64,000 nucleotides of DNA from Candidatus Woesebacteria bacterium GW2011_GWB1_38_8b (GTDB taxonomy: Bacteria; Patescibacteriota; Microgenomatia; UBA8517): NCBI GenBank assembly GCA_000993115.1, contig LBVN01000001.1, forward strand, positions 19,924 to 83,923, given 5' to 3'. Under the pieces are notes generated by a model. That model was not told the origin of the DNA. It did no database searches and worked only from the letters and a program-made list of their open reading frames with translations. Below are positions 9,067-41,829 of this stretch, one piece after another. The position numbers were made by a program, and so were the translations under genes. How positions within the stretch are numbered: the stretch's first letter is position 1; each line of letters begins with the position of its first letter.

Positions 9067-9071
9067 TGTAA

Positions 9072-9673: not shown

Positions 9674-9724
9674 AGTTCAACTCCGGTGCCCAAAGTTGGA
9701 GTTCAACTCCGGTGCCCAAAGTTG
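9674..9724. repeat. Tandem direct duplication (two 25-nt copies, 26-nt period) of the 3' terminal codons of gene 9703..10698, extending into its 3' flank
   Basis: agttcaactccggtgcccaaagttg occurs twice (about 9674..9698 and 9700..9724). Copy B encodes the last codons (FGHRS, stop at 9703..9705). Confidence 0.7.
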
Positions 9725-10698
9725 TAGAAAAGAACACTGTAATCCAGTATATCAACAGCCCCGGCGCTATCATGGTTTAGATTGGCTCTCGGATCGTAAC
9801 CCACCTGACCGGGTAATTTTCCAAAACTGGCAAATAAAATACTGTAATCAAGGATATCTACATTTCCGTCGCAGTTTGCATCTCCCGACCAACAATTAGG
9901 TGTTGGTGTTAAAGTATTTGTAATAGTGACAGGGGGGACAGTCCCTGTTGGCGTCATTGTGGGAGTGGGAGTGGGAGTTGGTGTTCGAGTCGGTGTAGGT
10001 GTGAATGTCGCTGTAGGTGTCGGTGTACGAGTCGGTGATGGTGTTGCCGTTGGCGTGGCTGTCGGAGTGTTTGTTACAACAGGATTAAGCGTAAAAGTCG
10101 AACCGGTTGAAGCAATAATCTGAGCCTCAGCTGTCATATTTACTATCTGAGAATCACTAACAGTAAAAGCAAGTTGAGAACTCACATTTGTTTGAGTAGT
10201 TGAGGATCGCACAGAAAAATTTGCAATCTCGAAAGTTCCTGTCGGGGGATTTGCCCTATCAAGCTCATCCAAACCAAGTGCAATTACAACTCTTCCTGTT
10301 GAATTCGCTTCCGCCATTGTCGTTTTAACGATCCAGGGGTCAGTTGCAGGCTCACGATTCTGTCTTAACCTCGTAGTTGTAGTTACTTCACTTGCCAAAT
10401 TAATTTGTGCAGGATTAAATGTCAATACAACTCTTGTAAAACCAATTAGCTGAGTTCCTGCACTTAAATTAACCCGAACCGTTGCATTCGGAGGTAGAGT
10501 CGCACTTGCCGGGGTTGTACTTAAAGTAACTGTCGTCACCGCTGCTTTGGGAACATATTGAACCGCTTTCCTTACAATAAATATAGCGGCGGGAAGTCCG
10601 ATTAATATTACAAGAAGGAGTGCCAATCTGGCCATAGTACCTTTCGGTAAATAGGACGATATTTTATGGGTAAATTTCATACCTAACTTAAAAAACAA
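9703..10698 (-). CDS. Adaptor scaffoldin-like protein: N-terminal anchor, cohesin-like domain(s), TP linker, and a C-terminal divergent Cys-flanked dockerin
   Basis: Cohesin-like VTLSTTPASATLPPNATVRVNLSA...VLTFNPAQINLAS...GRVVIALGL. Linker TPTATPTATPSPTRTPTPTA... Dockerin CWSGDANCDGNVDILDYSILFASFGK...NHDSAGAVDILDYSVLFYNFG. Confidence 0.6.
   Translation of the reverse strand: MFFKLGMKFTHKISSYLPKGTMARLALLLVILIGLPAAIFIVRKAVQYVPKAAVTTVTLSTTPASATLPPNATVRVNLSAGTQLIGFTRVVLTFNPAQINLASEVTTTTRLRQNREPATDPWIVKTTMAEANSTGRVVIALGLDELDRANPPTGTFEIANFSVRSSTTQTNVSSQLAFTVSDSQIVNMTAEAQIIASTGSTFTLNPVVTNTPTATPTATPSPTRTPTPTATFTPTPTRTPTPTPTPTMTPTGTVPPVTITNTLTPTPNCWSGDANCDGNVDILDYSILFASFGKLPGQVGYDPRANLNHDSAGAVDILDYSVLFYNFGHRS
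9935..10085. repeat. Low-complexity tandem repeat DNA encoding a Thr/Pro linker
   Basis: gtgggagtgggagttggtgttcgagtcggtgtaggtgt... The antisense ORF 9926..10123 (VGVGVGV) is an artefact. Confidence 0.7.
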
Positions 10699-10746
10699 TC
10701 TATTGACTAAATATGGCAGAATAATTCAAACGCGTCAAGCGTATTT

Positions 10747-12102
10747 TCAGTGATAATTTGACATCCAAATTACATAATCGGCTCCATCAACTCGTCCCGA
10801 ACTATTAAAGTCTCCAACAACGCGTCCTTGTGATGTTGTTTGGTTAAAATGATTAAGCCAGATAATATAGTCGACACCATCAACTCTCCCGTCACCATTT
10901 GCATCCCCCTGAACCAAAACTGTAGTTGGAGTTGGTGTTGGCGTACGAGTCGCTGTTGGAGTGGGTGTATTTGTTACGGCAGGTGTAGGGGTTGGAGTCG
11001 ATTGAGTTGAACCAGGCACCCAACCAGCAAGTTGGGCCATTAAAACCCAATAAGCTTTTGCTATTCTTACGTTTGCAGCACCCATACTGAAGTGGCCATT
11101 TTCGGTTTCTACTGTGTAATGTTGACAAATTGCCGGCTGGTTAATTCTATCATCAGGCCAATTTTCACAAACTGAGGTATTTTGACAATATAACACCCCG
11201 TCCCGGTTATCGTAACATTCCCTACCATCGGGCAGTGTGGCTTCGACATCCGCAAAATCAAGAAGTATTCTATAACGACCATTAGAATCCCGTCCGGAAT
11301 TGATAAATTGACGCATTTGATTATTAAAATTTGTTGAAACTTGTGTACCAATACTTCTTGCTAGACTCGTTGTCTGAAAGACAAAATATTTATTGCTATG
11401 TGCGACCAAACGTCTATCAAGATCGTAGACATCAGCTTTGTCACTGGAGTTATTATAAAAAAAACCACAACGTGGTTGATTACTCCCCCCGCAACTTGTT
11501 AAATTAGCTATAGAATCTCCATCCATCACATTCAAGTAGCTAAACTGGTAAGTATAAACATCAAAATCGTTTAAACTTCTCCCACCCTGAACCTGATTAT
11601 TATCAAGAAAAGTTATGTAATCGTTTGTCATTGTATACCACGTTGAAGCAAACCCTTCATGAATCCAGTTTGCACGATTGTAGCCACCAGTCCTACTCCA
11701 ATAAATATACTCAGGACTAAGATTATAACTTGGGTCGTTATGTACTAATTTTGTACACGTAAAGCTTGCTTGCGAACTTGATGGTGCTTCAAAGCAAGTT
11801 AACGCATCATTAGTAGTTACCCCTACGGAACGATTTCCAAATATTAACCTAATCTTTTCAGCCCTACAGAAATAACTTATTACACCAGTACTATCGTCTA
11901 TACAGTCACCATTTGAATCAGTAGTTGTAAAATCGGGGATTTGTTCGAAAAGAGCAATAGAATTTCTGTTAACAATTATTGGGGACTGCTGCAAGCGAAC
12001 GGATAAATTGGGATCTACCTGCGCATACACATTGCTCCTGCCAATCGAAAGTAATAAAAATGAAAAACAGACGGCAATAACCCTCTTGATAACTTTATAC
12101 AT
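10747..12102 (-). CDS. Secreted dockerin-bearing protein, unknown Cys-rich catalytic domain (family A, paralogue of 14580..15908)
   Basis: Signal peptide ending VYAQV. Conserved block CYDNRDGVLYC...PDD..NQPAICQHYTVE.ENGH..MGAANVRIAKAYWVLMAQLAGWVPG. C-terminal dockerin QGDANGDGRVDGVDYIIWLNHFNQ...GDFNSSGRVDGADYVIWMSNY. Confidence 0.6.
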   Translation of the reverse strand: MYKVIKRVIAVCFSFLLLSIGRSNVYAQVDPNLSVRLQQSPIIVNRNSIALFEQIPDFTTTDSNGDCIDDSTGVISYFCRAEKIRLIFGNRSVGVTTNDALTCFEAPSSSQASFTCTKLVHNDPSYNLSPEYIYWSRTGGYNRANWIHEGFASTWYTMTNDYITFLDNNQVQGGRSLNDFDVYTYQFSYLNVMDGDSIANLTSCGGSNQPRCGFFYNNSSDKADVYDLDRRLVAHSNKYFVFQTTSLARSIGTQVSTNFNNQMRQFINSGRDSNGRYRILLDFADVEATLPDGRECYDNRDGVLYCQNTSVCENWPDDRINQPAICQHYTVETENGHFSMGAANVRIAKAYWVLMAQLAGWVPGSTQSTPTPTPAVTNTPTPTATRTPTPTPTTVLVQGDANGDGRVDGVDYIIWLNHFNQTTSQGRVVGDFNSSGRVDGADYVIWMSNYH

Positions 12103-12164
12103 CTATAGATTTTCAATCATCCGGCAGTAATTTGCAACTACTTCGACCGGACAGTATCTCTTAA

Positions 12165-14513
12165 TCAAATACCATAATTATTTAACCAAATTATATAGTC
12201 TGCCCCGTCAACTTTTCCGGAATTATTAAAATCTCCGTTACTATAACCACTGGCATTTTGATCGTAATGATTTAGCCAGATAACATAATCCGCTCCATCT
12301 ACTTTTCCGTCACTATTTGCATCCCCCGGAATGACGGTCGGTGTTGGAGTGAGGGTTGTCTCTGTTGGTGTGGTGTTTAATAAAATTATTGCATCATTTG
12401 GTTGAAGAGTAACTTGATTCACAACACCTCCATCGTTATACCTTGCAATGCTTACAACTTTGAAAGCATCTCCTATGACCACGCCTGTACCCAAAGGCTT
12501 GATAACAACAGTCGACGTCTGATTAAAGTTAAATTTTCCCAAACTGTGCCAGCCAAGAGAACCCAAGGACTGATCAAGGTTGACATCAACTCCATTAATA
12601 CTAACAGTGACATTCTTGCTATAGGTAGTTAATGGTGCCACCCATGCCAAAACATCGTACTCTCCCGCATACGGAATTGTAAAATTGTACGTAAGGCTTG
12701 CATTTGCATTTGGAGCGTTTATTGAATGAATCTTTAATCCCCATTGGTCAAAACTTGCGGCAAGTATAGACCATGAACCGACAGCTATTGCCTGATCGTC
12801 ATCAATTCTTTGAAAATAAAGTGGGGCTTGAGAACCGTTAAGTTTCCGATAAGTTTTATCAAGTGTCACGGTTTGCTGCAGAGGCCCCTCGTTTAGAAGT
12901 ATTGTCCCGTTTTTAAAATGTCTTTGCCATACTCCTCCGACACCCTCCTGAAAGACAATATCGTCAAAGTAAATATCACCGGCAGCTATTCCTAAATCAA
13001 AAAGTAACGTACCATTTGTCCCTGTCCCTATAGCCTTCATTACGTAATAGTACTGCGTCCAATCAGTAAAAAAACGTATGTTATATGCAGCTTGCGCTAA
13101 ATATTCCCATGCACCTCCTGCTCTTTGGATTCTTACCCCGTTATAACGCGAGGTGTTGGCTTTAGCTTTAAAACTTAACGTATAATACTTTCCCGCCTCA
13201 ACTGAAACATAATTTTCTCTGAAAGTCACCCACCCACTTGATGCTCCTCCTATTTGAATGTGAGCAGAGCCGTTTTCTATATTATAGGTTGCTACAACAG
13301 TACTCCCGCTCGTACTTACAAACCAGGGACTAGTACCTGAAGAAAAGTTCCCGTTTACCACCTGATCGGGAGCAGTAATTTGGGAAATTAGCATCGGTGA
13401 GTCGATAGACTGTCCCAAGTATCCCAGCGACGAAACCTGACCTCGGGTACCGTATTCGTCATACCACCAGTTGGATCCCCACATATAGGGACCAAGATCA
13501 TAATGATACATTCCTCCCGCCATCATGGTTGAAACCAACCCAAAGCGCATCCGGTTATAATCAGTGCCATATTCAACCATCATTTCAGGTTTTATTGCCG
13601 TCCAGATATTTTGGAAATTATATTTGCTTCTCATTGTGACGCTGTCGGGAGTGTTTAACACACTAGTAGTGTTGGGAGAAATTGTGTTTTTTGATGTCCA
13701 TACGGAGAAATTATGGATTATTTCGGACCAAGGTCTACCGTAATCATTATCCAAATATCTTTTTATATCCATTTCAAATAATCGACCATTAATCCACTGG
13801 CTGAAATAAGGTGGAGAACCATTACAAAAAATAATCATGCCTGGGAAAGCAGCTCGGAGTCTTTGAAAAATATCAATTACACCTGAGGCATGATCGGCGT
13901 TTACAGTTGCTATATCATCGGGCACGCCATCAACATTCGCGTCAATATCATTGCCTAGTGTAATTGAAACTCCCGAATCATCAACCAAGTCAACTGTTAT
14001 GCCATCAAAATGACCGCCACTTAAATTCCAACGATTTATAAGATAATTTACTATAGTATCTCTACAATAAGTGTTACCCAAATTGGCATAGGCAGCATTA
14101 TATGTGACATCGCGTAAAATTGTCCCTACGGAATTTCGCAATATGCAAGCATAGTCTGGCGAACCAGGAGAAGCATTCCACCACTGAGGTTGGTTATCTA
14201 GACCTCTTCCCGGATCACTGGCAGTAATAATTGTAGCCGTAACTAAAACTTTCGTATTTGGATTTAGCGCATGAACAGCATCAGCCCGATCCTTAGATGA
14301 TTGGCTTGTGCCTGCCGAAGCCATTGACCAAAGATTAAAACCTGCAAAATAATCAGCATTGGTATTCGTATTGTATCCGCCCCACCAATTTAATATACGT
14401 GGATAACCTGAATCAGCATAAACATTTTTAGCAAAGCCTAATAAGGCAACCAAACTGCAAACAAATACAAAGCACATCTTGGTTAGACTTGTTATCACAA
14501 CCTCATTATACAA
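12165..14513 (-). CDS. Secreted glycoside-hydrolase-like TIM-barrel protein with a CBM4/9-like module and a C-terminal dockerin (family B, paralogue of 34445..36694)
   Basis: Signal peptide. N-terminal GHL/GH114-like region (HFDGITVDLV...). Middle module QVVNGNFSSGTSPWF...GWVTFRENYV..GKYYTLSFKAKA, typical of the CBM4/9/22 fold. Dockerin IPGDANSDGKVDGADYVIWLNHYDQN...NGDFNNSGKVDGADYIIWLNNY. Confidence 0.55.
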   Translation of the reverse strand: MYNEVVITSLTKMCFVFVCSLVALLGFAKNVYADSGYPRILNWWGGYNTNTNADYFAGFNLWSMASAGTSQSSKDRADAVHALNPNTKVLVTATIITASDPGRGLDNQPQWWNASPGSPDYACILRNSVGTILRDVTYNAAYANLGNTYCRDTIVNYLINRWNLSGGHFDGITVDLVDDSGVSITLGNDIDANVDGVPDDIATVNADHASGVIDIFQRLRAAFPGMIIFCNGSPPYFSQWINGRLFEMDIKRYLDNDYGRPWSEIIHNFSVWTSKNTISPNTTSVLNTPDSVTMRSKYNFQNIWTAIKPEMMVEYGTDYNRMRFGLVSTMMAGGMYHYDLGPYMWGSNWWYDEYGTRGQVSSLGYLGQSIDSPMLISQITAPDQVVNGNFSSGTSPWFVSTSGSTVVATYNIENGSAHIQIGGASSGWVTFRENYVSVEAGKYYTLSFKAKANTSRYNGVRIQRAGGAWEYLAQAAYNIRFFTDWTQYYYVMKAIGTGTNGTLLFDLGIAAGDIYFDDIVFQEGVGGVWQRHFKNGTILLNEGPLQQTVTLDKTYRKLNGSQAPLYFQRIDDDQAIAVGSWSILAASFDQWGLKIHSINAPNANASLTYNFTIPYAGEYDVLAWVAPLTTYSKNVTVSINGVDVNLDQSLGSLGWHSLGKFNFNQTSTVVIKPLGTGVVIGDAFKVVSIARYNDGGVVNQVTLQPNDAIILLNTTPTETTLTPTPTVIPGDANSDGKVDGADYVIWLNHYDQNASGYSNGDFNNSGKVDGADYIIWLNNYGI

Positions 14514-14579
14514 TTCTTTTAAATGTCCAAATATGAAGTATATTATCGGTTTAAAACTTTGGTAGCGGTACTAATGAAG

Positions 14580-15908
14580 CTATGAACTATAATTGTTAAC
14601 CCAAATAACATAATCCAAGCCATTAACCACACCATCAGAATTAAAATCTCCGTCCAACCTGCCCCAGGAGGTGTTTTGGTTAAAGTGAGAAAGCCAAATT
14701 ACGTAATCAACTCCATCCACCCGACCGTCACTATTTGCGTCAGCCTGATTGTATGACGGAATCGGAGTGAATGTTGGAGTTGGAGTTCTTGTTGACGTTA
14801 CCGTCTGAGTTGGTGTCGCGGTTATTTGTTGCTGTCCTGGGACCCAACCCGCAATCTGAGCAAGTAAAATCCAGTATGCTTTCGCCGATCTTATTAAACC
14901 GCCGCCCAATGTAAGGTGTCCGTTGTCTTGTTCAACAGTATAATTTTGGCAAATAGCCGGGTAATTTTGCCCATCATCAGGATAATTTTCTTGAAAGGTA
15001 GTCATGGGTGTGCAAGCCACACCTTCTTGTTTACGAACATAAGCCACCCCATCTCGGTTATCATAACAACTCACACCGCCTGGTGTATGAGAAATTATAT
15101 CTGCAAAATCAAACAGTATTTTATGATTAGAACTGGCAAAGCTTCGCATCTGATTATTAAACACCTCTCCATCTTCAGCACCGATACTTCTCGCATAACT
15201 TGTAGTCCAATAAATAAAAGCTTTATTTATGTACTGACTTTCAAGCTCAGTAATTCGGCCAATATGCCAGGGTTCATAGCTGTCATGACAGCCTGCCCTG
15301 TTTTGGGTCACCATAAAACCACATAGCGGATTGGCAATATTTGGTTGTTCATTGGTATTTCCTCCAATGTTAAGGTAGCTAAATTGATAGGTAACAATGT
15401 CATAACTGGCGATATTTTGGGGAAATAATGTACTTATAAAATTATCAGTTAAACTGTACCAGGACCCCTCCCGAAAAAGATATACAATATTACTGCGGTT
15501 ATATTTCGCAGGGTCCGGTGTAAATCTAATATCCTGCGGCACCACTCCATTATTCAAGTCTATCTGGTTATACATTCTACTGCACCATTGATTTGTATCA
15601 AAATAAGTTTTACGGCAGGAATTTGGTGACATTGCCCAACTTGTTGCTGTTAAACAGTCAAGTGACTCATTTATATTTTGACCAACGGAGCGGTCAGAGA
15701 AAAACACTCTGATATTTCTGGCGCGCTGCAAATAGTTTTCAGGGATTTGGTCAAATAAACCCAGTGAATTGTGATCGACTACGATTGGATTTGTCTGAAG
15801 GCGAGTTCTCAAGTTCGGGTCAACTTGAGCCTTCGTAATACTTGCAGATAATGAGAAAAAACACACCGCTAAAATTGATAAAAACAATAACTTGAACTCT
15901 TTTTTCAT
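14580..15908 (-). CDS. Secreted dockerin-bearing protein, unknown Cys-rich domain (family A paralogue)
   Basis: Shares blocks with 10747..12102 (AQVDPNL..RLQ, CYDNRDGVAY, YPDDGQNYPAICQNYTVEQDNGH, RSAKAYWILLAQIAGWVPG). Dockerin at the C-terminus. Confidence 0.6.
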   Translation of the reverse strand: MKKEFKLLFLSILAVCFFSLSASITKAQVDPNLRTRLQTNPIVVDHNSLGLFDQIPENYLQRARNIRVFFSDRSVGQNINESLDCLTATSWAMSPNSCRKTYFDTNQWCSRMYNQIDLNNGVVPQDIRFTPDPAKYNRSNIVYLFREGSWYSLTDNFISTLFPQNIASYDIVTYQFSYLNIGGNTNEQPNIANPLCGFMVTQNRAGCHDSYEPWHIGRITELESQYINKAFIYWTTSYARSIGAEDGEVFNNQMRSFASSNHKILFDFADIISHTPGGVSCYDNRDGVAYVRKQEGVACTPMTTFQENYPDDGQNYPAICQNYTVEQDNGHLTLGGGLIRSAKAYWILLAQIAGWVPGQQQITATPTQTVTSTRTPTPTFTPIPSYNQADANSDGRVDGVDYVIWLSHFNQNTSWGRLDGDFNSDGVVNGLDYVIWVNNYSS

Positions 15909-15930
15909 CTAATGGTTTTGAATAGGTTAA

Positions 15931-18924: not shown

Positions 18925-18935
18925 TAATAATTATA

Positions 18936-21926: not shown

Positions 21927-21964
21927 TTATATCAAAATATGTGAGCTAAAGAAAGTAAAGATTA

Positions 21965-25012: not shown

Positions 25013-25062
25013 AATCTCACTTTACAATAATATGAAGCTGAATGAAATACCAAAAACTGCAC

Positions 25063-27666: not shown

Positions 27667-27747
27667 ATTACTATTTTACAATGTTATATGAAAAATAAAT
27701 AACTCTGTTTCCAACTAAGAGGTCAAAGGATTCACTGAATTCTTTAC

Positions 27748-32765: not shown

Positions 32766-34515
32766 TATAGCTTACTAGCCAGATAACATAGTCTACTCCG
32801 TTTACCGTTCCGTCTTCATTAAAATCACCATCTCTAACTCCATTTCCAGAATTTTGATTGTAATGATTAAGCCAAATTAAATAATCCACCCCGTCAACTT
32901 TTCCATCACCATTTGCATCCCCTGGAATCGTAGTCGGGGTTGGGGTTTGTTCAAAAACAAATTCATAAGCTCCGATATCAAAAGCCGACCCTTGAGGCCG
33001 TATGGTTCCAATATAATCATCCGTAATACCTATTGCCGATAAATCTGCTCCGGAATTGACAGCGAGTGAGCTTGTTTGCAGGGAATAATCATTTATTGCC
33101 GGGTTTGTAAATTTTACTTGGGAAATATTTAGTGTTGTTAAGTTATTTGAAACGAAAAACTCACTACTTTCGGCACTGGGAATATTAAAATACCCGGAGG
33201 ACCCATAGCCAGGATTAATAATAATATTATTCTTTATCACATTTGCGTTTATACCGTTGTTGATTGCAAAAGTGATGCCATATCCAGCCGGATTAACTAT
33301 AGTATTATTAACAACAATTGTGTTGCCGTTATGTTGGTAACCTGTTGGCTTTACATATACATATATTCCGTCATGCCAATAAGAACTGGCGGTATTATTG
33401 GCAATGACGTTATTATAAATTCTGCCCCCGTCACCTCCATAAGTAATTCCATGACCCTTGGTATTGGTAATTAAATTGTTGTAAATATCACAAACACTAC
33501 CCGGGTTGATATTAATACCGTGAACATCTGTGGCTATGTCTTGCCCACCCTTATTTATCGAGTTGTTGTAAATATTGCAATCTTTTACGGCTGATCCAAC
33601 TTGTAGTGTTTTGTCGCCAAGTGTATCAATAACATTGTTGTAAATATGGACACCTTCGATTACGGGATTGACTACAACAACACCTGTTGTTACTGATCCA
33701 TCAGGGTTGTTACAACTTCTGGTATAGGGAATAGTAGAATAATTTGAATTCCCAATATAATATGCCAGTTGTAAGCTTGAGGTGTTGTCGGCTTTTGTAA
33801 ATCCATGAAAGTAATTATCATGAAAAAACAAATTATGTTGTGTAAAATTATCACGACTAACTACATCCAACTCATTATATAAACCATCTCCATTGTAATC
33901 CCAATCGTCATTATTAAGGCGGATTGCCTCATTCGCTCTTGAAATCGCCGGACATGAAGCGTTTGTGATTGCGTGAACAGCAATGGTAGACCCGAGAAGT
34001 TCCGTAAATTCCAAATGGTCAATCTCAAAGTATTCGGATTTCAGTCCCAACAACAAACCAAAAGTCAGGGCTTTTTGAACAAAAATACCGTATTTAAAAC
34101 CCGGACTTCCAGTTCCAGTTATTCGGAAATGTTTGGCATTGGCAATGAAAAATCCATATCCTGAAGAAGTATTGAATATTACTTGTCCTCCAGAATTAAT
34201 AAAGGTTATTGGATTTGTTACTGTACCACTAATATTTTTAATAGTTAAAGTACCTCTAGTTCCTGAAGAAATACAGACAGTATCACCTGGCTGAACTTGA
34301 TTGTATGGTGAAGACCTACCATCAAATACGGAAGTGGACACATTGACAGTAAAATCACAGTTTGGAGTTTGCGCCCATAAACCATCTACAGCAATCAACG
34401 AAATTGCATATAATATTAATGCGCTAAACACCGCATATCCTAATTTATACATTGTAGTTCGAAAGCCAGATAACATAGTCAGCTCCATCAACTTTTCCAT
34501 CAGAATTTGCATCAC
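32758..34515 (-). CDS. Secreted right-handed parallel beta-helix repeat protein with a dockerin; the likely true start is the Met at about 34452 (MYKLGYAVF...)
   Basis: PbH1-like repeats (YNNVIDT, YNNSINK, YNNLITN, YNNVIANN, NNTIVN, KNNIIIN). Dockerin IPGDANGDGKVDGVDYLIWLNHYNQN...DGDFNEDGTVNGVDYVIWLVSY. Confidence 0.5.
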   Translation of the reverse strand: MMQILMEKLMELTMLSGFRTTMYKLGYAVFSALILYAISLIAVDGLWAQTPNCDFTVNVSTSVFDGRSSPYNQVQPGDTVCISSGTRGTLTIKNISGTVTNPITFINSGGQVIFNTSSGYGFFIANAKHFRITGTGSPGFKYGIFVQKALTFGLLLGLKSEYFEIDHLEFTELLGSTIAVHAITNASCPAISRANEAIRLNNDDWDYNGDGLYNELDVVSRDNFTQHNLFFHDNYFHGFTKADNTSSLQLAYYIGNSNYSTIPYTRSCNNPDGSVTTGVVVVNPVIEGVHIYNNVIDTLGDKTLQVGSAVKDCNIYNNSINKGGQDIATDVHGININPGSVCDIYNNLITNTKGHGITYGGDGGRIYNNVIANNTASSYWHDGIYVYVKPTGYQHNGNTIVVNNTIVNPAGYGITFAINNGINANVIKNNIIINPGYGSSGYFNIPSAESSEFFVSNNLTTLNISQVKFTNPAINDYSLQTSSLAVNSGADLSAIGITDDYIGTIRPQGSAFDIGAYEFVFEQTPTPTTIPGDANGDGKVDGVDYLIWLNHYNQNSGNGVRDGDFNEDGTVNGVDYVIWLVSYNV

Positions 34516-36694: not shown

Positions 36695-39362
36695 AATTAT
36701 TCAACCAAATCACATAGTCAGCCCCATCAACATTTCCTGAATTATTAAAGTCACCATTTGCAGGACCGGTGACATTTAGATTGTAGTGATTTAGCCAAAT
36801 TACATAATCAGCTCCATCAACTCGTCCGTCGTTATTCGCATCTCCTAGGATTGGCGTTGGTGAGATTGTAGGAGTAATACTTATCGATTGATTATAATTC
36901 CCGATTTTTACTCCAACATCTGTTGTTACCGAAGCCAAATTATTTAGATTTATTATCAGTTCACCTTGATTGTTCGTTGGAATTTGTGAACTTGTTTTAG
37001 CTAAATTCGCACCATTGTCGAATTGCCAATATTCTACTGGCAGGGTTTCGTTTACAGAAAAACCTGAAATTGTAACACTCCCTGTTAATCTACCTAAATC
37101 CCAAGTCTGGGAACATCCGGATATTCCACCCACTACTGCGCACCATGTGTGTTTTTTATTTTGAATCCAAAGGTGCGCCAATTTCTTTTGTATATTTTTC
37201 TGACCAATAACCCGAATCGAATTATTATCATATCCCAAGGCTCCTATATCTGTATAACCTCCCTGATTTAAAGGAATATTTACTAAAAAGTCGGAAAGGG
37301 GTTTAAATCTATCCCGATGGTCAAACGTCAAAGGACAAGGAACAACTCCCCCGGGACAGTCATAAATATGAAAATTTTCAAACCAATAAGATTCAATTAA
37401 TCCGCCAGAATTAAGTCCCGCCCAAAGAAAATTATGAAGCCAAACCCCATTAGTATCCTTTCTTATATCTGAATCCTGAACCAGGTTGTTATCAACCACA
37501 AAACCGGTTTCCCCCCTTACTGTCGGCCAGCGTGTGTTTGATTGCGTACCCCACTGCGAACTGGCATCAATAGTAGCTTGTGCCTCGTCATAAAAATCAG
37601 TCAATGGCACACAAGGATTTCCGGATCTTCTTATGTAGCAGTGAACATCAGCAAAATCAATACCGGGATAATTATTTAAATTCCAAGAGGATGTAGTCCC
37701 TGTCCAAACTGAAGTTGACACCATTTGATGCGGGGAAAATTGACCCATATATTCCCCCATCATATTAACCGAAATTCTGTGGCCAGAATAACCCGGATCA
37801 CCCTCGTTCACATATTCCCAGGAATGTATATTTGTCGAATATCCCCAACGGGCCTCCAGATATCTCCACCAAGCTTTTTGTAACCACCTTGTTTTGGTAA
37901 TGGAGGTGTCTGAGGGTCCATAAAAATAATAAGATACGGGGTTAAAATCACCTGTTGGATTCCCGCTATGGTCAATGTGTGTAAATGTCCACTCTCTGTG
38001 GTCTCCAATTACGGGACGAAGGTAAACACTGTTCTGTTTAGCCAACTCAACAACCTGATCAAAAGAAAAAGAATTTCGCTGGTCAAAATATCTATGGTGA
38101 TCCATTTTAGGTTTTTGTAAAATATTTGCACCAACCGCAATATTGTTCTGTAATTCCTTTATTTCAACCTCGGAAACTCTGACACTTCCTGAAGTTATAT
38201 TCTCGAGTTGTAAAAAAAGATGGTCTATGAAATCCTGATTTCCGGTCGTAAAAGTTCCCGTCAACCATTGCCAGGAAGCGTTTGCTCCCTGCCTTACATA
38301 AGGTGTAATTGCAGTTGCCGAATTACATCCCTGCCAAGTACCCAGTTTGGCTACAAATCCCCCCTCCCCAACAATATTATCAGGATAATAAAAAATTCTA
38401 ATTTGGTAAGTAGTGTTTGGTTTTACAGCAATTGGAGCGTTTTGGTATGGGTCATGAAAAACACAAGGGTACACTGTTCCTACTTTTAACGCCAGTTCAT
38501 GATCGCTTTCCAAATACTGATTAACGTTCGAGGTTAGAAGTTCCATCGGAGGATCGCCCCCTGTATTTCCAAATGCTTTCCATGGATTCCAACCTGCACC
38601 AAATATTGACCACTGAGACAGCCAAACGCGAATCAGTTGAACACCATTTTGTCCCATACTTTGAAAATTGGATTGATTTTGTGAAATCGGATTTACCCAG
38701 TTTACGTGGTTATAGTTCATGTTATATCCAAGACCGGCAAAATATGACCCATTATCAAATTCAAAATAGCGCTTATCACTTTGGGCAACTCTAATAAATC
38801 CCTTACTGCCTGATGCGACAACACTAAAGCCACTGATGTTTGAAGTTGAACTGCCTGATGCGTCTCGCACTTTTATTCTGTATTGCCAGTTTCCGACTTG
38901 GTTTGGTGCGTAACGAACTTTCCAGGAAAAATTTCCGTTTGGATATATCCAGTCTCTAGTCCCGTTGTTTTTGCTTAACATTGAAAAATCCTGATAATAA
39001 AAAGCTGGTTGCGTATAAGCATTGTTCCAGTCTGTTTCGCCTGGAGGAAGAAGCTCCGCGTCTACTGAAATTCCTAAATCGGCTTCTTTAAGGCCTGATG
39101 GCACAGGAGGTTCATAAGGAAGCTGTAAATTTTGTGCAACAGTATTTGCAACCTGAAAAGAAATTTCCAGCTTTTCGTATTTTGGAATTTGAGAACCCTG
39201 ATACGATGACCTATTATCGGAAATACTATTTATCGTAGGTCCCTGCTGGGCAAAAATATTTCTTGGATACACCAAAAAAAATCCCAAACATAGAAATAGT
39301 GATGTTAGAATTAATAGTCTTCGCATACTACTTATCAGTATATCAGCCAACTGGACTCTCAA
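36684..39362 (-). CDS. Secreted DUF5060/GH5-like (cellulase-superfamily TIM barrel) protein with a dockerin
   Basis: N-terminal Ig-like region, then a TIM-barrel-like core (KRYFEFDNGSYFAGLGYNMNY...RVWLSQW). Dockerin LGDANNDGRVDGADYVIWLNHYNLN...NGDFNNSGNVDGADYVIWLNNY. Confidence 0.4.
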   Translation of the reverse strand: MRVQLADILISSMRRLLILTSLFLCLGFFLVYPRNIFAQQGPTINSISDNRSSYQGSQIPKYEKLEISFQVANTVAQNLQLPYEPPVPSGLKEADLGISVDAELLPPGETDWNNAYTQPAFYYQDFSMLSKNNGTRDWIYPNGNFSWKVRYAPNQVGNWQYRIKVRDASGSSTSNISGFSVVASGSKGFIRVAQSDKRYFEFDNGSYFAGLGYNMNYNHVNWVNPISQNQSNFQSMGQNGVQLIRVWLSQWSIFGAGWNPWKAFGNTGGDPPMELLTSNVNQYLESDHELALKVGTVYPCVFHDPYQNAPIAVKPNTTYQIRIFYYPDNIVGEGGFVAKLGTWQGCNSATAITPYVRQGANASWQWLTGTFTTGNQDFIDHLFLQLENITSGSVRVSEVEIKELQNNIAVGANILQKPKMDHHRYFDQRNSFSFDQVVELAKQNSVYLRPVIGDHREWTFTHIDHSGNPTGDFNPVSYYFYGPSDTSITKTRWLQKAWWRYLEARWGYSTNIHSWEYVNEGDPGYSGHRISVNMMGEYMGQFSPHQMVSTSVWTGTTSSWNLNNYPGIDFADVHCYIRRSGNPCVPLTDFYDEAQATIDASSQWGTQSNTRWPTVRGETGFVVDNNLVQDSDIRKDTNGVWLHNFLWAGLNSGGLIESYWFENFHIYDCPGGVVPCPLTFDHRDRFKPLSDFLVNIPLNQGGYTDIGALGYDNNSIRVIGQKNIQKKLAHLWIQNKKHTWCAVVGGISGCSQTWDLGRLTGSVTISGFSVNETLPVEYWQFDNGANLAKTSSQIPTNNQGELIINLNNLASVTTDVGVKIGNYNQSISITPTISPTPILGDANNDGRVDGADYVIWLNHYNLNVTGPANGDFNNSGNVDGADYVIWLNNYGV

Positions 39363-39383
39363 TCCAGAAAAAAATTTGTGAAT

Positions 39384-40289
39384 CTAATTAAATGCAGACT
39401 GAGTTTTTTCTTTTTTGGATAATCGGCCGAGGAGAAATGCAAAAACAGAGATCAAAAACATAACTACCGCGATCAAAATAAAGACAAAGTAATTGGTATG
39501 TTTTTGTAAGACCGGGATTTCAGTCGTCCCCTCTCCTAACACCTCCGGATTATTTTCGGAAATATTGCTTGGAAAAACAAATTTTTCTTCATTTGATTTG
39601 AGAGTTCTTTCTTCTTGATTCGATGCGAGGATCTTATCTACGGCTTTAGTTGGTTTGGGTTTTTCATTGTTTAAAATGGCATTGAGTGAACTTGCATTTG
39701 TAAGTGTCAAGCTATTTACGCTTTCCAAAACATCAATTCCGGCCTTATTTACAACATTTGTATCGTTTGTCATTCCGGCTTCATACGTAAAGGAAAAAAC
39801 TGATTTCGAATTTTCCGATTTGCTTTTAAAATATATTGTTGTAAGTCTGGCGGTGCTACCCGAAAAGTATTTTCCAAAGTCGTTGGAAAAAGCAACCTTT
39901 AATTTTCCTGAATTGTTATCAATAATTTCTTTAGCTTTGTATGTTAAGAGTCCGTAATCGGATATGTTTGTCAGTTCGATATTATTTGGATCGAAACTCA
40001 TTACCAGATCAACACCAACAATTTCTTCTTTCCCCGGGTTAAGATAGATATCGACTGAGCTGTTCGAGTCTTTTTTTAAAGAAATTGAATCGGGAGAAAA
40101 AGATAACGACGGAATGCTATCCGCTTTGACGGGTGAAACACATAACCAAAACAACAAAACCGCAATATTTATACTGAAAAATTTATTGAATTTACTTGCG
40201 AAATCTACGGACTTTAGTCTGTAGATGAAGCAAGAATCTAATCTTGTCGACAAAATACCATGGTCTTCAGCCTGTGGTAGTTTATTCAT
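39384..40289 (-). CDS. Membrane-anchored cohesin-domain protein (C-terminal TM helix plus basic tail); the start is uncertain
   Basis: Cohesin-like DSIPSLSFSPDSISLKKDSNSSVDIYLNPGKEEIVGVDLVMSFDPNNIELTNI...TTIYFKSK. C-terminus YFVFILIAVVMFLISVFAFLLGRLSKKEK. The annotated N-terminal 30 codons coincide with repeat-element copy 3. Confidence 0.55.
   Translation of the reverse strand: MNKLPQAEDHGILSTRLDSCFIYRLKSVDFASKFNKFFSINIAVLLFWLCVSPVKADSIPSLSFSPDSISLKKDSNSSVDIYLNPGKEEIVGVDLVMSFDPNNIELTNISDYGLLTYKAKEIIDNNSGKLKVAFSNDFGKYFSGSTARLTTIYFKSKSENSKSVFSFTYEAGMTNDTNVVNKAGIDVLESVNSLTLTNASSLNAILNNEKPKPTKAVDKILASNQEERTLKSNEEKFVFPSNISENNPEVLGEGTTEIPVLQKHTNYFVFILIAVVMFLISVFAFLLGRLSKKEKTQSAFN
40196..40262. 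repeat. Copy 3 (partial) of the intergenic repeat family: gcgaaatc + hairpin + atgaagc.agaatc + cgacaaaa
   Basis: gcgaaatctacggactttagtctgtagatgaagcaagaatctaatcttgtcgacaaaa aligns with copy 2 at 57903..57960. The hairpin sequence differs but the pairing is preserved. Confidence 0.55.
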
Positions 40290-41829
40290 CTTCCCTGAAG
40301 AAATTATTGACTAAAATCCAAAAGTCGTAAGAATTTACAATTCCGTCTTTGTTGTAATCAGATGGTCCTGTCAAAAACCAATTCTGATACATTATTGCGA
40401 CATCGATATTATTAACAATTCCGTCATCGTTTAGATCCCCTGCAACTAAATTTCCGAAATTCAAAACGTTTGTCCCCTCAAGAAGAGTCTGCGAAATTCT
40501 TCTCCTCAAAAATCCCGATGATTTAAGCCTAAAGAAAAGTTCAGAATTTAAATAGGTATAATCAAGTTGCCAAGTTTGTGAATTTCCGTCATTATCAGTT
40601 GTAAAATTTTGCAGCCAAGTGTCATCGACTATTTCCACCGACCCTGATGCAACGTGTCCAATTGCAAGATTTTCGGAAGGAGTCTTTAGGTTTAAATAAG
40701 CAAATACATCTAATCCCAAAATATCCAAAATTGCACCGTTTGTAGTTTGTAAGATATCCTCTCCGTTTGTTGCAATTACGTTACTTTCAGATTTATCACC
40801 GAGAGTAAAATTAAAATTAAGCTCGGTTAGTCCGATTATTTTTGGTTTAACTGTTATACTCGCAACAATACCTCCTGAATTTATACTTTGTTGAGGAGTT
40901 TGGGTTGCCGAAATTCTTAAAATTCCGGGGGAACTGTTATTAAAAATAAAATTTCCACTAAAAAGACCGCTACTTGAAACGTTTATAATATCAACAGCCA
41001 GCGGATCGTAATTAATAACCGCGTCAACTCCAATTATCGGTGAAGATATTAATAAACTCAGGTCAACTTGGGATTCTTTCGTTATTTTAAATTCCCCGTT
41101 CGGAAAAAGCGATAAAGTTGCAGGCTGATTTGCTATCGGAGTAGGAGTTGGGGTAACTGTCGCCGTGGGTGTTGGTGTTGGTGTCTCAGTTTGAGTTGGT
41201 GTAACCGTGGGTGTAAAAGTCGGTGTATTTGTTGGAGTAAGTGTTGGGGTAGGAGAATCAGTTGGTGTTAACGTTGCAGTCGGAGTTTGGGTCGGGGCGT
41301 CAAATGAAATGTCAAAGTTCTGACTCCCAACAGTTAATTGTTGGGCAGCCATGTTAACAACACTAAAATTTTGAGTATTGAAAGTCAAAGAAGTACCACC
41401 TGAAGGTGTTCCTGTTTTATTAAATTCCAAAGTTGCCAATTCAAACTCTCCGCTTGGAGGATTGGCAACGTCTGCCGGCGACAATCCCAATACTATTGTT
41501 ACTACCCCATTTGCATTTGCATCGGCGACATTTGTAACAATTATTTGGTTTTTTAAAGGTCCTGTTGCCGCAACCGGTGCTGATAAACTCAGCTTAGTTT
41601 TGTCAAATGAAATTTCCACCGAAACAAATCCAATTAACTCGGAACCTGAATTAAGCATAATTTTGTAAGACCCACTTGTTAAAGTTGATAAATCATTTGG
41701 ACCTGTAATAAAAAGATTCGCTTGCGGTGTTTGCGCAGAAGTATTGATAATTTTTGTAAGAATTACAATTAAGCCAACAAAAACCAGCGCATAAAATTTC
41801 TTACCATGTAAATTCTTCAAAAAATTCAT
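40282..41829 (-). CDS. Scaffoldin-like protein: signal peptide, two cohesin-like domains separated by a TP linker, an X-like beta module and a divergent C-terminal dockerin
   Basis: Cohesin-like 1 (YKIMLNSGSELIGFVSVEISFDKTKLSL...VVTIVLGL). PT linker PTQTPTATLTPTDSPTPT... Cohesin-like 2 (ITKESQVDLSLLISSPIIGVDAVINYDPLAVDII...). Dockerin GDLNDDGIVNNIDVAIMYQNWF...DYNKDGIVNSYDFWILVNNFF. Confidence 0.6.
   Translation of the reverse strand: MNFLKNLHGKKFYALVFVGLIVILTKIINTSAQTPQANLFITGPNDLSTLTSGSYKIMLNSGSELIGFVSVEISFDKTKLSLSAPVAATGPLKNQIIVTNVADANANGVVTIVLGLSPADVANPPSGEFELATLEFNKTGTPSGGTSLTFNTQNFSVVNMAAQQLTVGSQNFDISFDAPTQTPTATLTPTDSPTPTLTPTNTPTFTPTVTPTQTETPTPTPTATVTPTPTPIANQPATLSLFPNGEFKITKESQVDLSLLISSPIIGVDAVINYDPLAVDIINVSSSGLFSGNFIFNNSSPGILRISATQTPQQSINSGGIVASITVKPKIIGLTELNFNFTLGDKSESNVIATNGEDILQTTNGAILDILGLDVFAYLNLKTPSENLAIGHVASGSVEIVDDTWLQNFTTDNDGNSQTWQLDYTYLNSELFFRLKSSGFLRRRISQTLLEGTNVLNFGNLVAGDLNDDGIVNNIDVAIMYQNWFLTGPSDYNKDGIVNSYDFWILVNNFFREDE
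41150..41300. repeat. Low-complexity tandem repeat DNA encoding a Thr/Pro linker
   Basis: ggagttggggtaactgtcgccgtgggtgttggtgttggtgtctc... The antisense ORF 41378..41668 is an artefact. Confidence 0.7.

What the first reader, a model, noticed from the sequence alone, without database searches (positions are those of the whole stretch)
9703..41829. Three distinct dockerin types suggest a hierarchical scaffoldin / adaptor / anchor assembly
All 13 enzymes carry one dockerin flavour (DANGDG.VDGADYVIWLNHYNQN). The two-cohesin protein 40282..41829 ends in a different dockerin preceded by an X-like module (DLNDDGIVNNIDVAIMYQNWF...DYNKDGIVNSYDFWILVNNFF), which is CipA-like architecture. Protein 9703..10698 combines cohesin with a third, Cys-flanked dockerin (CWSGDANCDGNVDILDYSILF...GAVDILDYSVLFYNFG). 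Three cohesin proteins (8143..9066, 9072..9626, 39384..40289) are membrane-anchored. This implies enzymes bind scaffoldin cohesins and scaffoldin or adaptor dockerins bind anchored cohesins.
Basis: inference. Interest (0 to 1): 0.75.

Follow-up and report, generated by a model that had tools for sequence, protein, structure and literature searches.

The report
Cohesin-dockerin surface assembly in a Woesebacterium
An ultra-small groundwater bacterium (Candidatus Woesebacteria) carries an 18-gene cluster for a cellulosome-like plug-and-socket system with three plug types and six sockets, which probably mounts 13 secreted proteins on its membrane; none of the 13 is a recognisable cellulase and the plug-socket pairings are inferred, not measured.

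Summary
On the minus strand, 8143..41829 is one tightly packed 18-gene cluster from Candidatus Woesebacteria GW2011_GWB1_38_8b.

- **Cargo:** thirteen secreted proteins end in one dockerin type (62-83% identical to each other). One of them has only half a dockerin.
- **Scaffoldin:** 40282..41829 is signal peptide, cohesin, linker, cohesin, X module, dockerin. Its model best matches C. thermocellum CipA Coh9-X-DocII.
- **Third dockerin:** 9703..10698 carries a cohesin plus a Cys-bearing dockerin.
- **Separation of types:** the three dockerin types are 27-40% identical to each other.
- **Cohesins:** there are six modules, not five, in two families.

Related CPR loci show two conserved gene modules. 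The scaffoldin gene is immediately followed by a membrane cohesin gene in 11 of 11 loci. Five related loci keep the window's order in which a small anchored-cohesin gene directly follows the Cys-dockerin gene.

This supports a tiered, membrane-anchored assembly, but every pairing rests on gene context. Calling it a cellulosome is not justified: no cellulase family, CBM3, SLH or sortase signal was found in the cluster proteins. Only five cargo proteins have carbohydrate-related domains.

I rate it a new variant of a known kind, of moderate interest.

The parts
40282..41829 (-). Scaffoldin 'ScaS' (515 aa). Signal peptide ending ...TSA|Q, then Coh1a (residues 34-178, nt 41296..41730), PT linker, Coh2a (234-372, nt 40714..41130), X module (373-462, nt 40444..40713) and dockerin type S (463-515, nt 40285..40443).
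   Evidence: Pfam Cohesin 27.0 bits and Dockerin_1 28.0 bits. AF2 pLDDT 84.7. Foldseek top hits are CipA Coh9-X-DocII, 4fl4_C and 3kcp_A. The family profile hits C. acetobutylicum cohesin 6kg8 at profile positions 40-187 and dockerin 2y3n_B. The architecture is conserved in 20 homologs.
39384..40289 (-). Anchor 'AncD' (301 aa): signal peptide (...VKA|D), family-2 cohesin Coh2b (about residues 56-205), linker, C-terminal transmembrane helix with a Lys-rich tail. Its start overlaps the scaffoldin stop by 8 nt (ATGAATAA).
   Evidence: Blastp to Coh2a E=5.5e-9 and to the 8143 cohesin E=1e-7. Orthologs carry precomputed Pfam Cohesin (weak) hits. C-terminal hydropathy peak 3.23. The gene sits directly downstream of the scaffoldin in 11 of 11 loci. 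UniRef names it a cohesin domain-containing protein.
36684..39362 (-). Cargo 1 (892 aa): DUF5060-containing protein plus E-type dockerin.
   Evidence: Pfam DUF5060 27.1 bits (just under the 27.2 cut-off) and Dockerin_1 22.0 bits. PDB 9gmj 'DUF5060 domain-containing protein' E=8e-20.
34445..36694 (-). Cargo 2 (749 aa): unknown N-terminal domain, CBM4_9, Golvesin_C, then a single F-hand (half dockerin).
   Evidence: Pfam. C-terminus read. The identical protein occurs on 13 contigs.
32758..34452 (-). Cargo 3: right-handed beta-helix protein plus E dockerin. The likely start is the ATG at 34452, giving an 8-nt overlap with the upstream gene.
   Evidence: Pfam Beta_helix 26.1 bits and Dockerin_1 35.5 bits. 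NCBIfam choice_anch_Q. Junction sequence.
31509..32765 (-). Cargo 4 (418 aa): unassigned domain plus E dockerin.
29561..31516 (-). Cargo 5 (651 aa): GHL10 glycosyl-hydrolase-like domain plus E dockerin.
   Evidence: Pfam GHL10 49.1 bits and Dockerin_1 27.8 bits.
27748..29568 (-). Cargo 6 (606 aa): unassigned domain plus E dockerin.
25063..27666 (-). Cargo 7 (867 aa): unassigned domain plus E dockerin.
15931..25012 (-). Cargo 8-10: three paralogs (21965..25012, 18936..21926, 15931..18924; about 1000 aa each). Each has an 8-bladed BamB/YxaL-like beta-propeller, an all-alpha domain and an E dockerin.
14580..15908 (-). Cargo 11 (442 aa): unassigned domain, paralog of 10747..12102, plus E dockerin.
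12165..14513 (-). Cargo 12 (782 aa): paralog of cargo 2, with CBM4_9, Golvesin_C and a complete E dockerin.
   Evidence: Pfam. The CBM matches laminarinase 16A CBM4, 1gui, E=1e-8.
10747..12102 (-). Cargo 13 (451 aa): unassigned domain plus E dockerin.
   Evidence: Pfam Dockerin_1 28.5 bits. Dockerin alignment.
9703..10698 (-). 'C9703' (the likely start is the ATG at 10680, giving 325 aa): hydrophobic N-terminal anchor or signal, cohesin Coh1b (about nt 10054..10548), PT linker, dockerin type C (nt 9706..9885). The dockerin has Cys at ...NCWSGDANCDG... and a 2-residue insertion in its second loop.
   Evidence: Blastp to the scaffoldin E=9e-39, 36% identity. Same subfamily as Coh1a, sharing the EANSTG and NPPSGxFE motifs. 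The dockerin profile hits 2y3n_B at E=1.6e-10. The Cys pair is conserved in homologs P0122-P0124. N-terminal hydropathy peak 2.68.
9072..9626 (-). 'B9072' (184 aa): N-terminal transmembrane anchor plus family-2 cohesin Coh2c, held close to the membrane.
   Evidence: Pfam Cohesin 38.7 bits. Hydropathy peak 2.88. The gene directly follows the type-C dockerin gene here and in five related loci.
8143..9066 (-). 'A8143' (307 aa): N-terminal transmembrane anchor, cohesin Coh1c, long PT/GS linker, C-terminal transmembrane helix.
   Evidence: Pfam Cohesin 28.3 bits. Hydropathy peaks 2.86 (N-terminal) and 2.87 (C-terminal). It is the conserved third gene of the C-B-A module.

Best explanation
The cluster 8143..41829 (minus strand) of a Candidatus Woesebacteria genome encodes a cohesin-dockerin system that assembles secreted proteins on the cell membrane in tiers.

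**Shown**
- 18 same-strand genes with short gaps or 8-nt overlaps.
- 13 secreted cargo proteins with one dockerin type (E).
- A secreted scaffoldin with two cohesins of different families, an X module and a second dockerin type (S).
- Four membrane-tethered cohesin proteins, one of which also carries a third dockerin type (C).

**Inferred mechanism**
1. DocS, with its X module, plugs into Coh2b of the translationally coupled type-I membrane protein AncD. This fixes the scaffoldin to the cell.
2. The cargo E dockerins plug into the closely related cohesins Coh1a (on the scaffoldin) and Coh1b (on C9703), and perhaps into Coh1c (on A8143).
3. DocC plugs into Coh2c of the next gene's product, B9072, or alternatively into Coh2a of the scaffoldin.
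4. The nearly identical repeats of E and of C suggest dual binding modes. The asymmetric S repeats plus the X module suggest a single mode, as in type II dockerins.
5. Anchoring is by transmembrane helices, not SLH domains or sortase.
6. The cargo looks glycan-directed in part but is not cellulolytic. Some of it was probably acquired horizontally and then fitted with the dockerin.

The confidence of 0.6 applies to the general picture of a tiered, membrane-anchored cohesin-dockerin assembly. The individual pairings are less certain: DocS with Coh2b is the best supported, and DocC with Coh2c the least.
For: - **Domain identities:**
- **Dockerin types:** three discrete types. Dockerin repeats are confined to this cluster.
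- **Cohesin families:** six cohesins in two families, with subtypes 1ab, 1c, 2ab and 2c.
- **ScaS followed by AncD:** adjacent in 11 of 11 CPR loci from Woesebacteria, Gottesmanbacteria, Microgenomates, WWE3 and Patescibacteria. The same arrangement, a DocS-like dockerin protein followed by a Coh2b-like protein, appears in a Saccharibacteria contig (L020) and an Omnitrophota contig (L023).
- **C, B, A order:** the window's order is repeated in L028, L031, L037 and L041, and as Doc followed by B in L038. L034 also has a dockerin-bearing cohesin protein followed by a family-2 cohesin protein.
- **E-type cargo and Coh1ab:** E-type cargo genes lie beside scaffoldins that have a Coh1ab-type first cohesin in 4 of 5 loci, against 0 of 6 for scaffoldins with another first cohesin. 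By hand this gives Fisher p of about 0.015, but the loci are not phylogenetically independent.
- **E-type cargo and C-like genes:** E-type cargo precedes C-like genes in L028, L029, L030, L032 and L034.
- **Secretion and anchoring:** cargo and scaffoldin have signal peptides of moderate hydrophobicity ending in A|Q. A8143, B9072 and C9703 have N-terminal hydropathy peaks of 2.7-2.9.
- **Horizontal acquisition:** the homologs of the propeller cargo are mostly about 920 aa with no dockerin recorded, and those with a taxon name are mostly Chloroflexi. GC is higher across those genes.
Against: - No physical or co-folding evidence exists for any pair. All pairings rest on gene adjacency and co-occurrence among related, non-independent genomes.
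- Coh2a and Coh2b share their conserved motifs (GVD, (E/D)(S/T)N, GxDxL). DocS could therefore bind Coh2a as well, or instead.
- In L013-L017 a cohesin plus Cys-dockerin gene sits next to the scaffoldin with no B-like gene nearby. That favours DocC binding a scaffoldin cohesin over DocC binding Coh2c.
- C9703 looks membrane-tethered, which is odd for an adaptor.
- Eight of 13 cargo proteins have no functional assignment.
- One cargo protein has only half a dockerin.
Confidence: 0.6

Rival explanations
1. Scaffoldin polymerisation. DocS binds Coh2a of another scaffoldin as well as Coh2b of AncD. Scaffoldins would then form head-to-tail chains rooted on AncD, each unit presenting one cargo-binding Coh1a.
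For: Coh2a and Coh2b belong to one family and share the conserved GVD, (E/D)(S/T)N and GxDxL positions. No other obvious ligand for Coh2a is encoded in the window. DocS is highly conserved across the family.
Against: Coh2a and Coh2b are long-separated orthologous groups (25% identity between groups, 33-36% within) with group-specific conserved residues. I know of no characterised scaffoldin that binds its own X-dockerin.
Confidence: 0.15
2. The three dockerin 'types' reflect ancestry, not specificity. Binding is promiscuous and there is no hierarchy; everything simply ends up on any membrane cohesin.
For: No binding data exist. All modules share canonical Ca-binding positions.
Against: Identity is only 27-40% between types but 62-83% within type E, and the helix contact positions are completely different (GA/LN, NI/YQ with SY/VN, IL/FA). 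Each dockerin type has kept its own conserved gene neighbour over wide CPR divergence. In characterised cellulosomes, divergence of this size goes with distinct specificity (established knowledge).
Confidence: 0.08
3. The system is mainly an adhesion device for the episymbiotic lifestyle. Membrane-tethered dockerins or cohesins (C9703, A8143, B9072) would bind partner modules or glycans on a host or sister cell, and the cargo proteins would be binding proteins rather than enzymes.
For: C9703 presents a dockerin from a membrane-tethered stalk. Eight of 13 cargo proteins lack any catalytic assignment, and three are propeller proteins. A dockerin-domain protein is essential for epibiotic growth of a Saccharibacterium, with host glycan targeting proposed (PMC10633639). 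Non-cellulosomal dockerins have been proposed as adhesins in Omnitrophota (PMC10066038).
Against: All partners needed for a self-contained assembly are encoded in one cluster. Several cargo proteins have glycan-active or glycan-binding domains: GHL10, beta-helix, CBM4_9 and DUF5060. A close relative carries PL8 and Pel9A-like cargo.
Confidence: 0.12
4. It is a bona fide cellulose-degrading cellulosome, as 'cellulosome' annotations in CPR papers imply.
For: Cohesin, dockerin and X-dockerin architecture. Earlier papers call CPR cohesin-dockerin genes cellulosomes (PMC6031116, PMC9123182).
Against: No cargo protein matches a GH5, GH9 or GH48 family. The scaffoldin has no CBM3. None of the 18 cluster proteins matches an SLH family.
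Confidence: 0.04

Closest known systems
Clostridium (Acetivibrio) thermocellum CipA with type II X-dockerin and the anchoring scaffoldins SdbA, OlpB and Orf2p
   Same: - The scaffoldin ends in Coh-X-Doc, and its best structural matches are CipA Coh9-X-DocII, 4fl4_C and 3kcp_A.
- Cargo proteins share one symmetric dockerin type, and the scaffoldin dockerin is distinct and asymmetric.
- A separate cell-bound cohesin protein is encoded next to the scaffoldin.
   Different: - Only two cohesins are on the scaffoldin, and they belong to different families.
- No CBM3 is present.
- Anchors use transmembrane helices instead of SLH repeats.
- No cargo protein matches a known cellulase family.
- The host is a CPR bacterium; CPR genomes are typically only about 1 Mb (general knowledge, not measured here).
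Adaptor and multi-tier cellulosomes of Acetivibrio cellulolyticus (ScaA, ScaB, ScaC, ScaD) and Ruminococcus flavefaciens (ScaA, ScaB, ScaC, ScaE)
   Same: - More than two dockerin and cohesin specificities are present.
- One protein combines a single cohesin with a dockerin (C9703, like ScaC).
- The scaffoldin genes are clustered.
   Different: - The putative adaptor here appears membrane-tethered through its own N-terminus.
- No SLH family matched any cluster protein, and I saw no sortase signal in the sequences.
- The cohesin families do not map cleanly onto types I, II and III.
- Binding partners are untested.
Non-cellulosomal cohesin- and dockerin-like modules (Peer et al. 2009, cited in PMC10066038) and the 'cellulosome' genes reported in CPR genomes (Saccharibacteria PMC6031116; Shapirobacterales, and Roizmanbacterium as cited there, PMC9123182)
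   Same: - Cohesin and dockerin modules occur outside cellulolytic Firmicutes, including Microgenomates and Saccharibacteria.
- The two-gene unit of a dockerin protein followed by a cohesin protein, seen here in L020 and L023, could be the kind of system called a 'simple two-subunit cellulosome' in PMC6031116. That is an inference; the paper's genes were not compared.
   Different: - Those reports mention one or two genes without dissecting types.
- This locus has 3 dockerin types, 6 cohesins in 4 subtypes, 13 cargo proteins and two anchoring gene modules conserved across CPR lineages.

Membership tests
Dockerin (PF00404, two F-hand Ca-binding repeats) | Duplicated roughly 22-residue segment, each with a D-x-[DN]-x-[DNS]-x(3)-[DN]-x(2)-D loop followed by a helix. 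| tested here: met
   Met for 12 cargo proteins and for ScaS and C9703. Pfam scores are 13-35 bits, and five cargo proteins plus ScaS exceed the 22.9 cut-off. The alignment shows the loop positions. The C9703 family profile hits solved dockerins at E=1.6e-10. Exceptions: 34445..36694 has one repeat only, and the second loop of C9703 has a 2-residue insertion.
Cohesin (PF00963, nine-stranded jelly-roll) | Sequence or structure match to the cohesin fold. | tested here: met
   Pfam passes the 24.1 cut-off for A8143 (28.3 bits), B9072 (38.7) and ScaS Coh2a (27.0). Coh1a matches cohesin 6kg8 by profile (E=4e-4). The scaffoldin model matches single solved cohesins at TM about 0.8; the output does not say which of its two cohesins aligned. 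Coh1b is assigned by 36% identity to the Coh1a region. Coh2b is assigned by similarity to Coh2a and by Pfam-weak hits on orthologs. Coh1b and Coh2b were not modelled directly.
Type II-like X-dockerin scaffoldin terminus (CipA-like) | An Ig-like X module immediately N-terminal to the dockerin, forming one unit after a cohesin. | tested here: met
   The AF2 model has an all-beta module at residues 373-462 between Coh2a and the dockerin helices. The top Foldseek hits 4fl4_C and 3kcp_A (CipA Coh9-X-DocII) align over 309-316 columns at E about 1e-16 to 1e-17. Whether the X module contributes to binding is untested.
Type II-like X-dockerin scaffoldin terminus (CipA-like) | Specific binding to the cohesins of anchoring scaffoldins and not to the enzyme-binding cohesins. 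| not testable with these tools
   Only gene-context inference is available (11 of 11 adjacency). The tools offered no co-folding or contact output.
Cellulosome in the strict sense | Dockerin-bearing cellulases or hemicellulases (for example GH5, GH9, GH48, GH10, GH11). | tested here: not met
   Pfam, NCBIfam and PDB sequence searches of the cargo proteins found GHL10, Beta_helix, CBM4_9, Golvesin_C, DUF5060 and PQQ-like propellers, but no classical GH family.
Cellulosome in the strict sense | A substrate-targeting CBM (CBM3) on the scaffoldin. | tested here: not met
   The scaffoldin has no CBM by Pfam or in its model. CBM4_9 occurs only on two cargo proteins.
Cellulosome in the strict sense | Cell-wall attachment through SLH modules or a sortase signal. 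| tested here: not met
   Pfam reported no SLH family for any of the 18 cluster proteins. The anchors end in plain transmembrane helices. No LPXTG motif was seen by eye. The A8143 tail reads ...TLADAGIAFPTIIF... with no basic tail.
Adaptor scaffoldin (ScaC or ScaB type) | A secreted protein with cohesin(s) and a dockerin that bridges two other components. | tested here: inconclusive
   C9703 has one cohesin and one dockerin. Its N-terminal segment is as hydrophobic as those of the membrane anchors (2.68, against 2.05 for ScaS). Signal-peptide cleavage cannot be decided from sequence.

The most novel reading that the evidence does not exclude
The pair 'X-dockerin protein followed by a membrane cohesin' could be an ancient surface-display device found across Patescibacteria, seen here from Woesebacteria to Saccharibacteria. 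In some Microgenomates it would have been expanded into a multi-tier, transmembrane-anchored assembly. That assembly would capture horizontally acquired glycan-active proteins by giving them a shared dockerin, letting an ultra-small cell with a tiny genome deploy a modular, swappable extracellular toolkit against host or environmental glycans. The scaffoldin may also self-polymerise through Coh2a.
Probability: 0.25. Interest if true: 0.75.

Novelty: new variant of a known kind. Interest (0 to 1): 0.55.

Why it matters
CPR bacteria are a large, mostly uncultivated part of bacterial diversity, and little is known about how they interact with their surroundings or hosts. Several points make this locus useful:

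- **Scale.** A roughly 34-kb cluster devoted to a tiered cohesin-dockerin assembly suggests that extracellular protein organisation matters to this organism. That would be a sizeable share of a genome if, as is typical for CPR, it is only about 1 Mb (general knowledge; genome size was not measured here).
- **Clean test case.** With three dockerin types and six cohesins, it is a small, well-defined system for specificity rules outside Firmicutes.
- **Different anchoring.** It uses transmembrane helices rather than SLH domains or sortase.
- **Cargo capture.** It shows apparent 'dockerin capture' of genes whose homologs elsewhere, mostly in Chloroflexi where named, lack a dockerin.
- **Annotation caution.** Cohesin and dockerin genes in CPR genomes should not be read as evidence of cellulose degradation.

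Tried and rejected
- **Co-folding and contacts.** The scaffoldin model's interdomain geometry is unreliable (pTM 0.45).
- **Telling Coh2a from Coh2b as the DocS receptor by conservation.** Both are conserved orthologous groups that share the main motifs, so the result is not discriminating. A mirror-tree analysis was considered and dropped, because all modules track phylogeny.
- **Cargo function.**
  - PDB sequence searches were empty or hit only the dockerin for 25063, 31509, 27748 and 14580.
  - NCBIfam gave nothing useful.
  - A literature search for DUF5060 was uninformative.
- **Promoter and terminator scan of 7-13 kb.** Counts were at shuffle expectation, so there is no operon-boundary evidence.
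- **Literature gap.** Geesink et al. 2020 on Roizmanbacterium, cited in PMC9123182 for cellulosomes having been detected in that organism, is not held in the library. Its content is known to me only through that citation.
- **Sortase-type signal in A8143.** The tail ...TLADAG plus a hydrophobic stretch lacks a basic tail and an LPXTG motif, so I treat it as a plain transmembrane helix.

Full report
**Source and setting**

Exact-sequence look-ups of SecA and LysRS place the window in Candidatus Woesebacteria bacterium GW2011_GWB1_38_8b, from Rifle groundwater (CPR, Microgenomates), on a 150-kb contig. The same locus recurs in several aquifer metagenome assemblies. Housekeeping genes flank the cluster: secA, a serine recombinase, a PspC-domain protein and a methyltransferase on one side; an ABC exporter, MgsA, serS, lysS, greA, a LytR-family gene, lon and tRNA-Glu on the other.

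From 41829 down to 8143 there are 18 ORFs, all on the minus strand. They are separated by 5-81 nt or overlap by 8-11 nt.

**Checking the observation**

A six-frame regex scan for F-hand loop plus helix finds 31 hits. All lie on the minus strand between 9,882 and 40,437.

The C-termini of the 13 ORFs from 10747 to 39362 align as one dockerin type, GDANGDGRVDGADYVIWLNHYNQN...GDFNNSGRVDGADYVIWLNNY.
- The 12 full-length copies are 62-83% identical pairwise (mean 71).
- They are 29-37% identical to the scaffoldin dockerin and 30-40% to the 9703 dockerin.
- Those two are 27% identical to each other.

Pfam Dockerin_1 passes its cut-off for five cargo proteins and the scaffoldin. It scores just below the cut-off for most of the others. 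One cargo protein, 34445..36694, ends after a single repeat. The identical 749-aa protein occurs on 13 contigs, so this is real.

A profile of the 9703 family hits solved dockerins at E=1.6e-10. Its Cys pair (C-x6-C around the first loop) is conserved in the three closest homologs, P0122-P0124.

**The scaffoldin**

An AF2 model built on 21 homologs (pLDDT 84.7) shows a signal helix, a beta-sandwich at residues 36-175, a disordered PT linker, a second beta-sandwich at 237-371, a third beta module at 375-460, and two helices.

Foldseek against the PDB ranks C. thermocellum CipA Coh9-X-DocII first: 4fl4_C at E=3e-17 and 3kcp_A. Single cohesins follow at TM about 0.8. The family profile hits a C. 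acetobutylicum cohesin over the first sandwich and several dockerins over the C-terminus. The CipA-like reading of the architecture is therefore supported at fold level.

The family is small. The X-dockerin segment finds only 66 clusters at E<=1e-10 among 1.84 billion representatives, and the strongest matches are mostly 450-570 aa proteins with the module at the C-terminus.

**Cohesins**

There are six modules, not five. All-against-all blastp separates two families.
- Family 1: scaffoldin Coh1a, 9703 Coh1b, 8143 Coh1c.
- Family 2: scaffoldin Coh2a, 39384 Coh2b, 9072 Coh2c.

Alignments that include orthologs refine this.
- Coh1a and Coh1b form one tight subfamily with shared EANSTG and NPPSGxFE motifs. 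Coh1c is separate.
- Coh2a and Coh2b share GVD, (E/D)(S/T)N and GxDxL positions, yet they are distinct orthologous groups (25% identity between, 33-36% within).
- Coh2c lacks these motifs.

**Topology**

- Cargo proteins and the scaffoldin have moderately hydrophobic signal peptides ending ...A|Q.
- 39384 has a signal peptide and a C-terminal transmembrane helix with a basic tail.
- 8143 has hydrophobic segments at both ends.
- 9072 and 9703 have N-terminal segments as hydrophobic as 8143's (2.7-2.9).
- 9703 is therefore probably tethered itself, although cleavage cannot be excluded.

**Comparative context**

A scan of GTDB species genomes with the scaffoldin alignment found relatives in Woesebacteria, Gottesmanbacteria, other Microgenomates, WWE3 and unclassified Patescibacteria. 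Weaker matches came from Saccharibacteria, Azambacteria and Omnitrophota.

Local phmmer and regex annotation of these loci gave three results.
- In 11 of 11 CPR loci the scaffoldin gene is immediately followed, often with overlap, by a gene for a Coh2b-type protein.
- The same arrangement, a protein ending in a DocS-like repeat followed by a Coh2b-like protein, appears twice in tandem in a Saccharibacteria contig (L020) and once in an Omnitrophota contig (L023).
- E-type cargo genes lie next to scaffoldins whose first cohesin is of the Coh1ab type in 4 of 5 loci, and next to none of 6 scaffoldins with a different first cohesin.

A metagenome scan with the 9703 family gave two more results.
- The order seen in the window recurs in five independent loci. 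There, a Coh1b protein with a 'VDILDY' dockerin is followed by a small anchored Coh2c protein, and usually by a Coh1c anchor.
- E-type cargo genes precede C-like genes in five loci.

The window therefore joins two conserved anchoring modules, ScaS-AncD and C-B-A, around a block of cargo genes.

**Mechanism proposed, and its status**

- *DocS binds Coh2b.* This has the strongest contextual support: invariant adjacency, translational coupling, and an X-dockerin as in type II systems.
- *The E dockerin binds Coh1a and Coh1b.* Support is moderate, from co-occurrence and from the near-identical motifs of two cohesins sitting on different carriers.
- *DocC binds Coh2c.* Support is weak. It rests on adjacency, and it is contradicted by L013-L017. 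In those loci a cohesin plus Cys-bracketed dockerin gene sits beside the scaffoldin with no B-like gene nearby. That points instead to a scaffoldin cohesin such as Coh2a.
- *Binding modes.* The repeat symmetry of E and of C suggests dual modes, and the asymmetry of S suggests a single mode. This reads the sequence against established cellulosome knowledge.
- No pairing was tested physically or by co-folding.

**Cargo**

Five of 13 cargo proteins have carbohydrate-related domains: GHL10, a right-handed beta-helix, CBM4_9 plus Golvesin_C (twice), and DUF5060.

Three paralogs of about 1000 aa combine a BamB/YxaL-like 8-bladed propeller with an all-alpha domain.
- The search returned 625 homologs at E<=1e-10. 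Most of those listed are about 920 aa, match about 90% of the query and have no dockerin recorded.
- Those that carry a taxon name are mostly Chloroflexi.
- GC across these genes is 0.43-0.45, against 0.34-0.38 in the flanks.
- Together this points to acquisition followed by dockerin capture.

The rest are unassigned. A 67%-identical relative's cluster carries different cargo, namely PL8, Pel9A-like and Tricorn/PD40 proteins, so the cargo set varies. No classical cellulase family, CBM3 or SLH module was found in the 18 cluster proteins, and no sortase signal was seen in their sequences.

**Comparison with the literature**

- A Saccharibacterium was reported to have a 'simple, two-subunit cellulosome' (PMC6031116).
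- Cohesin and dockerin genes are expressed in a Shapirobacterales MAG. That paper also cites a report of cellulosomes in a Roizmanbacterium (PMC9123182). The cited paper is not held.
- A dockerin-domain protein is essential for epibiotic growth of Southlakia (PMC10633639).
- Full-text searches found no dissection of a multi-tier CPR system.
- UniRef already labels four of these proteins as cohesin- or dockerin-domain proteins. NCBI calls the scaffoldin a 'PKD domain containing protein'.

**Verdict**

The hierarchical interpretation is plausible and now has comparative support, but it is unproven and partly mis-specified. The system works like a small multi-tier cellulosome. It fails three defining features of a cellulosome in the strict sense: cellulases, CBM3, and SLH or sortase anchoring. 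I class it as a new variant of a known kind, of moderate interest.

Noticed in passing
window 34445..36694 (-), C-terminus near 34448..34516: This cargo protein ends in a single F-hand, GDANSDGKVDGADYVIWLSNYNV. It looks like an in-frame fusion of the start of repeat 1 with the end of repeat 2. Its paralog 12165..14513 has both repeats. The identical protein occurs on 13 contigs, so it is not an assembly error.
   Followed up: partly
window about 46,251..47,425 (-), serS: Seryl-tRNA synthetase is split into a 318-aa ORF and a 109-aa ORF. Relative to the sister assembly L001, the window lacks 121 nt at about 46,596, which causes a frameshift. Other assemblies call an intact 431-aa gene. This is either an assembly artefact or a strain variant.
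   Followed up: partly
window junctions 34445/34452, 32758/32765, 31509/31516, and also 40282/40289: Successive cargo genes share almost the same junction, ...TA(C/T)AATGTATAA.... The stop codon of the dockerin ORF overlaps the ATG of the next gene's 'MYK...' signal peptide. This suggests translational coupling and cassette-like duplication or recombination through the conserved dockerin end and signal-peptide start.
   Followed up: partly
window 15931..25012 (-): Three tandem paralogs of about 1000 aa belong to a family with 625 homologs at E<=1e-10. Most are about 920 aa with no dockerin recorded, and those with a taxon name are mostly Chloroflexi. GC here is 0.43-0.45, against 0.34-0.38 in the flanks. 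This looks like horizontal acquisition followed by addition of the dockerin. Their function remains unknown (propeller plus all-alpha domain).
   Followed up: partly
L013 968..1942, L014 1896..2855, L015 9132..10013, L017 8452..9330: In a second subgroup of CPR loci, a gene of about 300 aa for an anchor or signal, a cohesin and a dockerin sits directly upstream of the scaffoldin. Its dockerin is bracketed by one Cys before repeat 1 and one Cys at the extreme C-terminus. This may be a disulfide clasp, and the arrangement differs from the Cys pair in window 9703.
   Followed up: no
L020 6397..11485, L023 184..2041: A Saccharibacteria contig and an Omnitrophota contig carry the minimal pair: a protein ending in one DocS-like repeat (D[LI]N.DG[IL]VNS[LI]DFSW[LM]) followed by a Coh2b-like cohesin protein. 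The pair occurs twice in tandem in L020. It may correspond to the 'two-subunit cellulosome' reported for Saccharibacteria.
   Followed up: no
window 41896..43731 (-): An ABC exporter-type protein of 611 aa lies directly upstream of the scaffoldin on the same strand. An ABC_tran gene is also directly upstream of the scaffoldin in the 67%-identical relative (L007 and L008). Any link to the cohesin-dockerin system is unknown.
   Followed up: no
window 1860..3434 (+): A large serine recombinase (Resolvase, Recombinase and zinc-ribbon domains) abuts secA. It may mark a mobile element near the cluster.
   Followed up: no
window 61804..63033 (+): This protein has a four-helix-bundle sensory-like N-terminus and a phosphodiester glycosidase (NAGPA) domain. 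It is another surface glycan-related gene outside the cluster.
   Followed up: no
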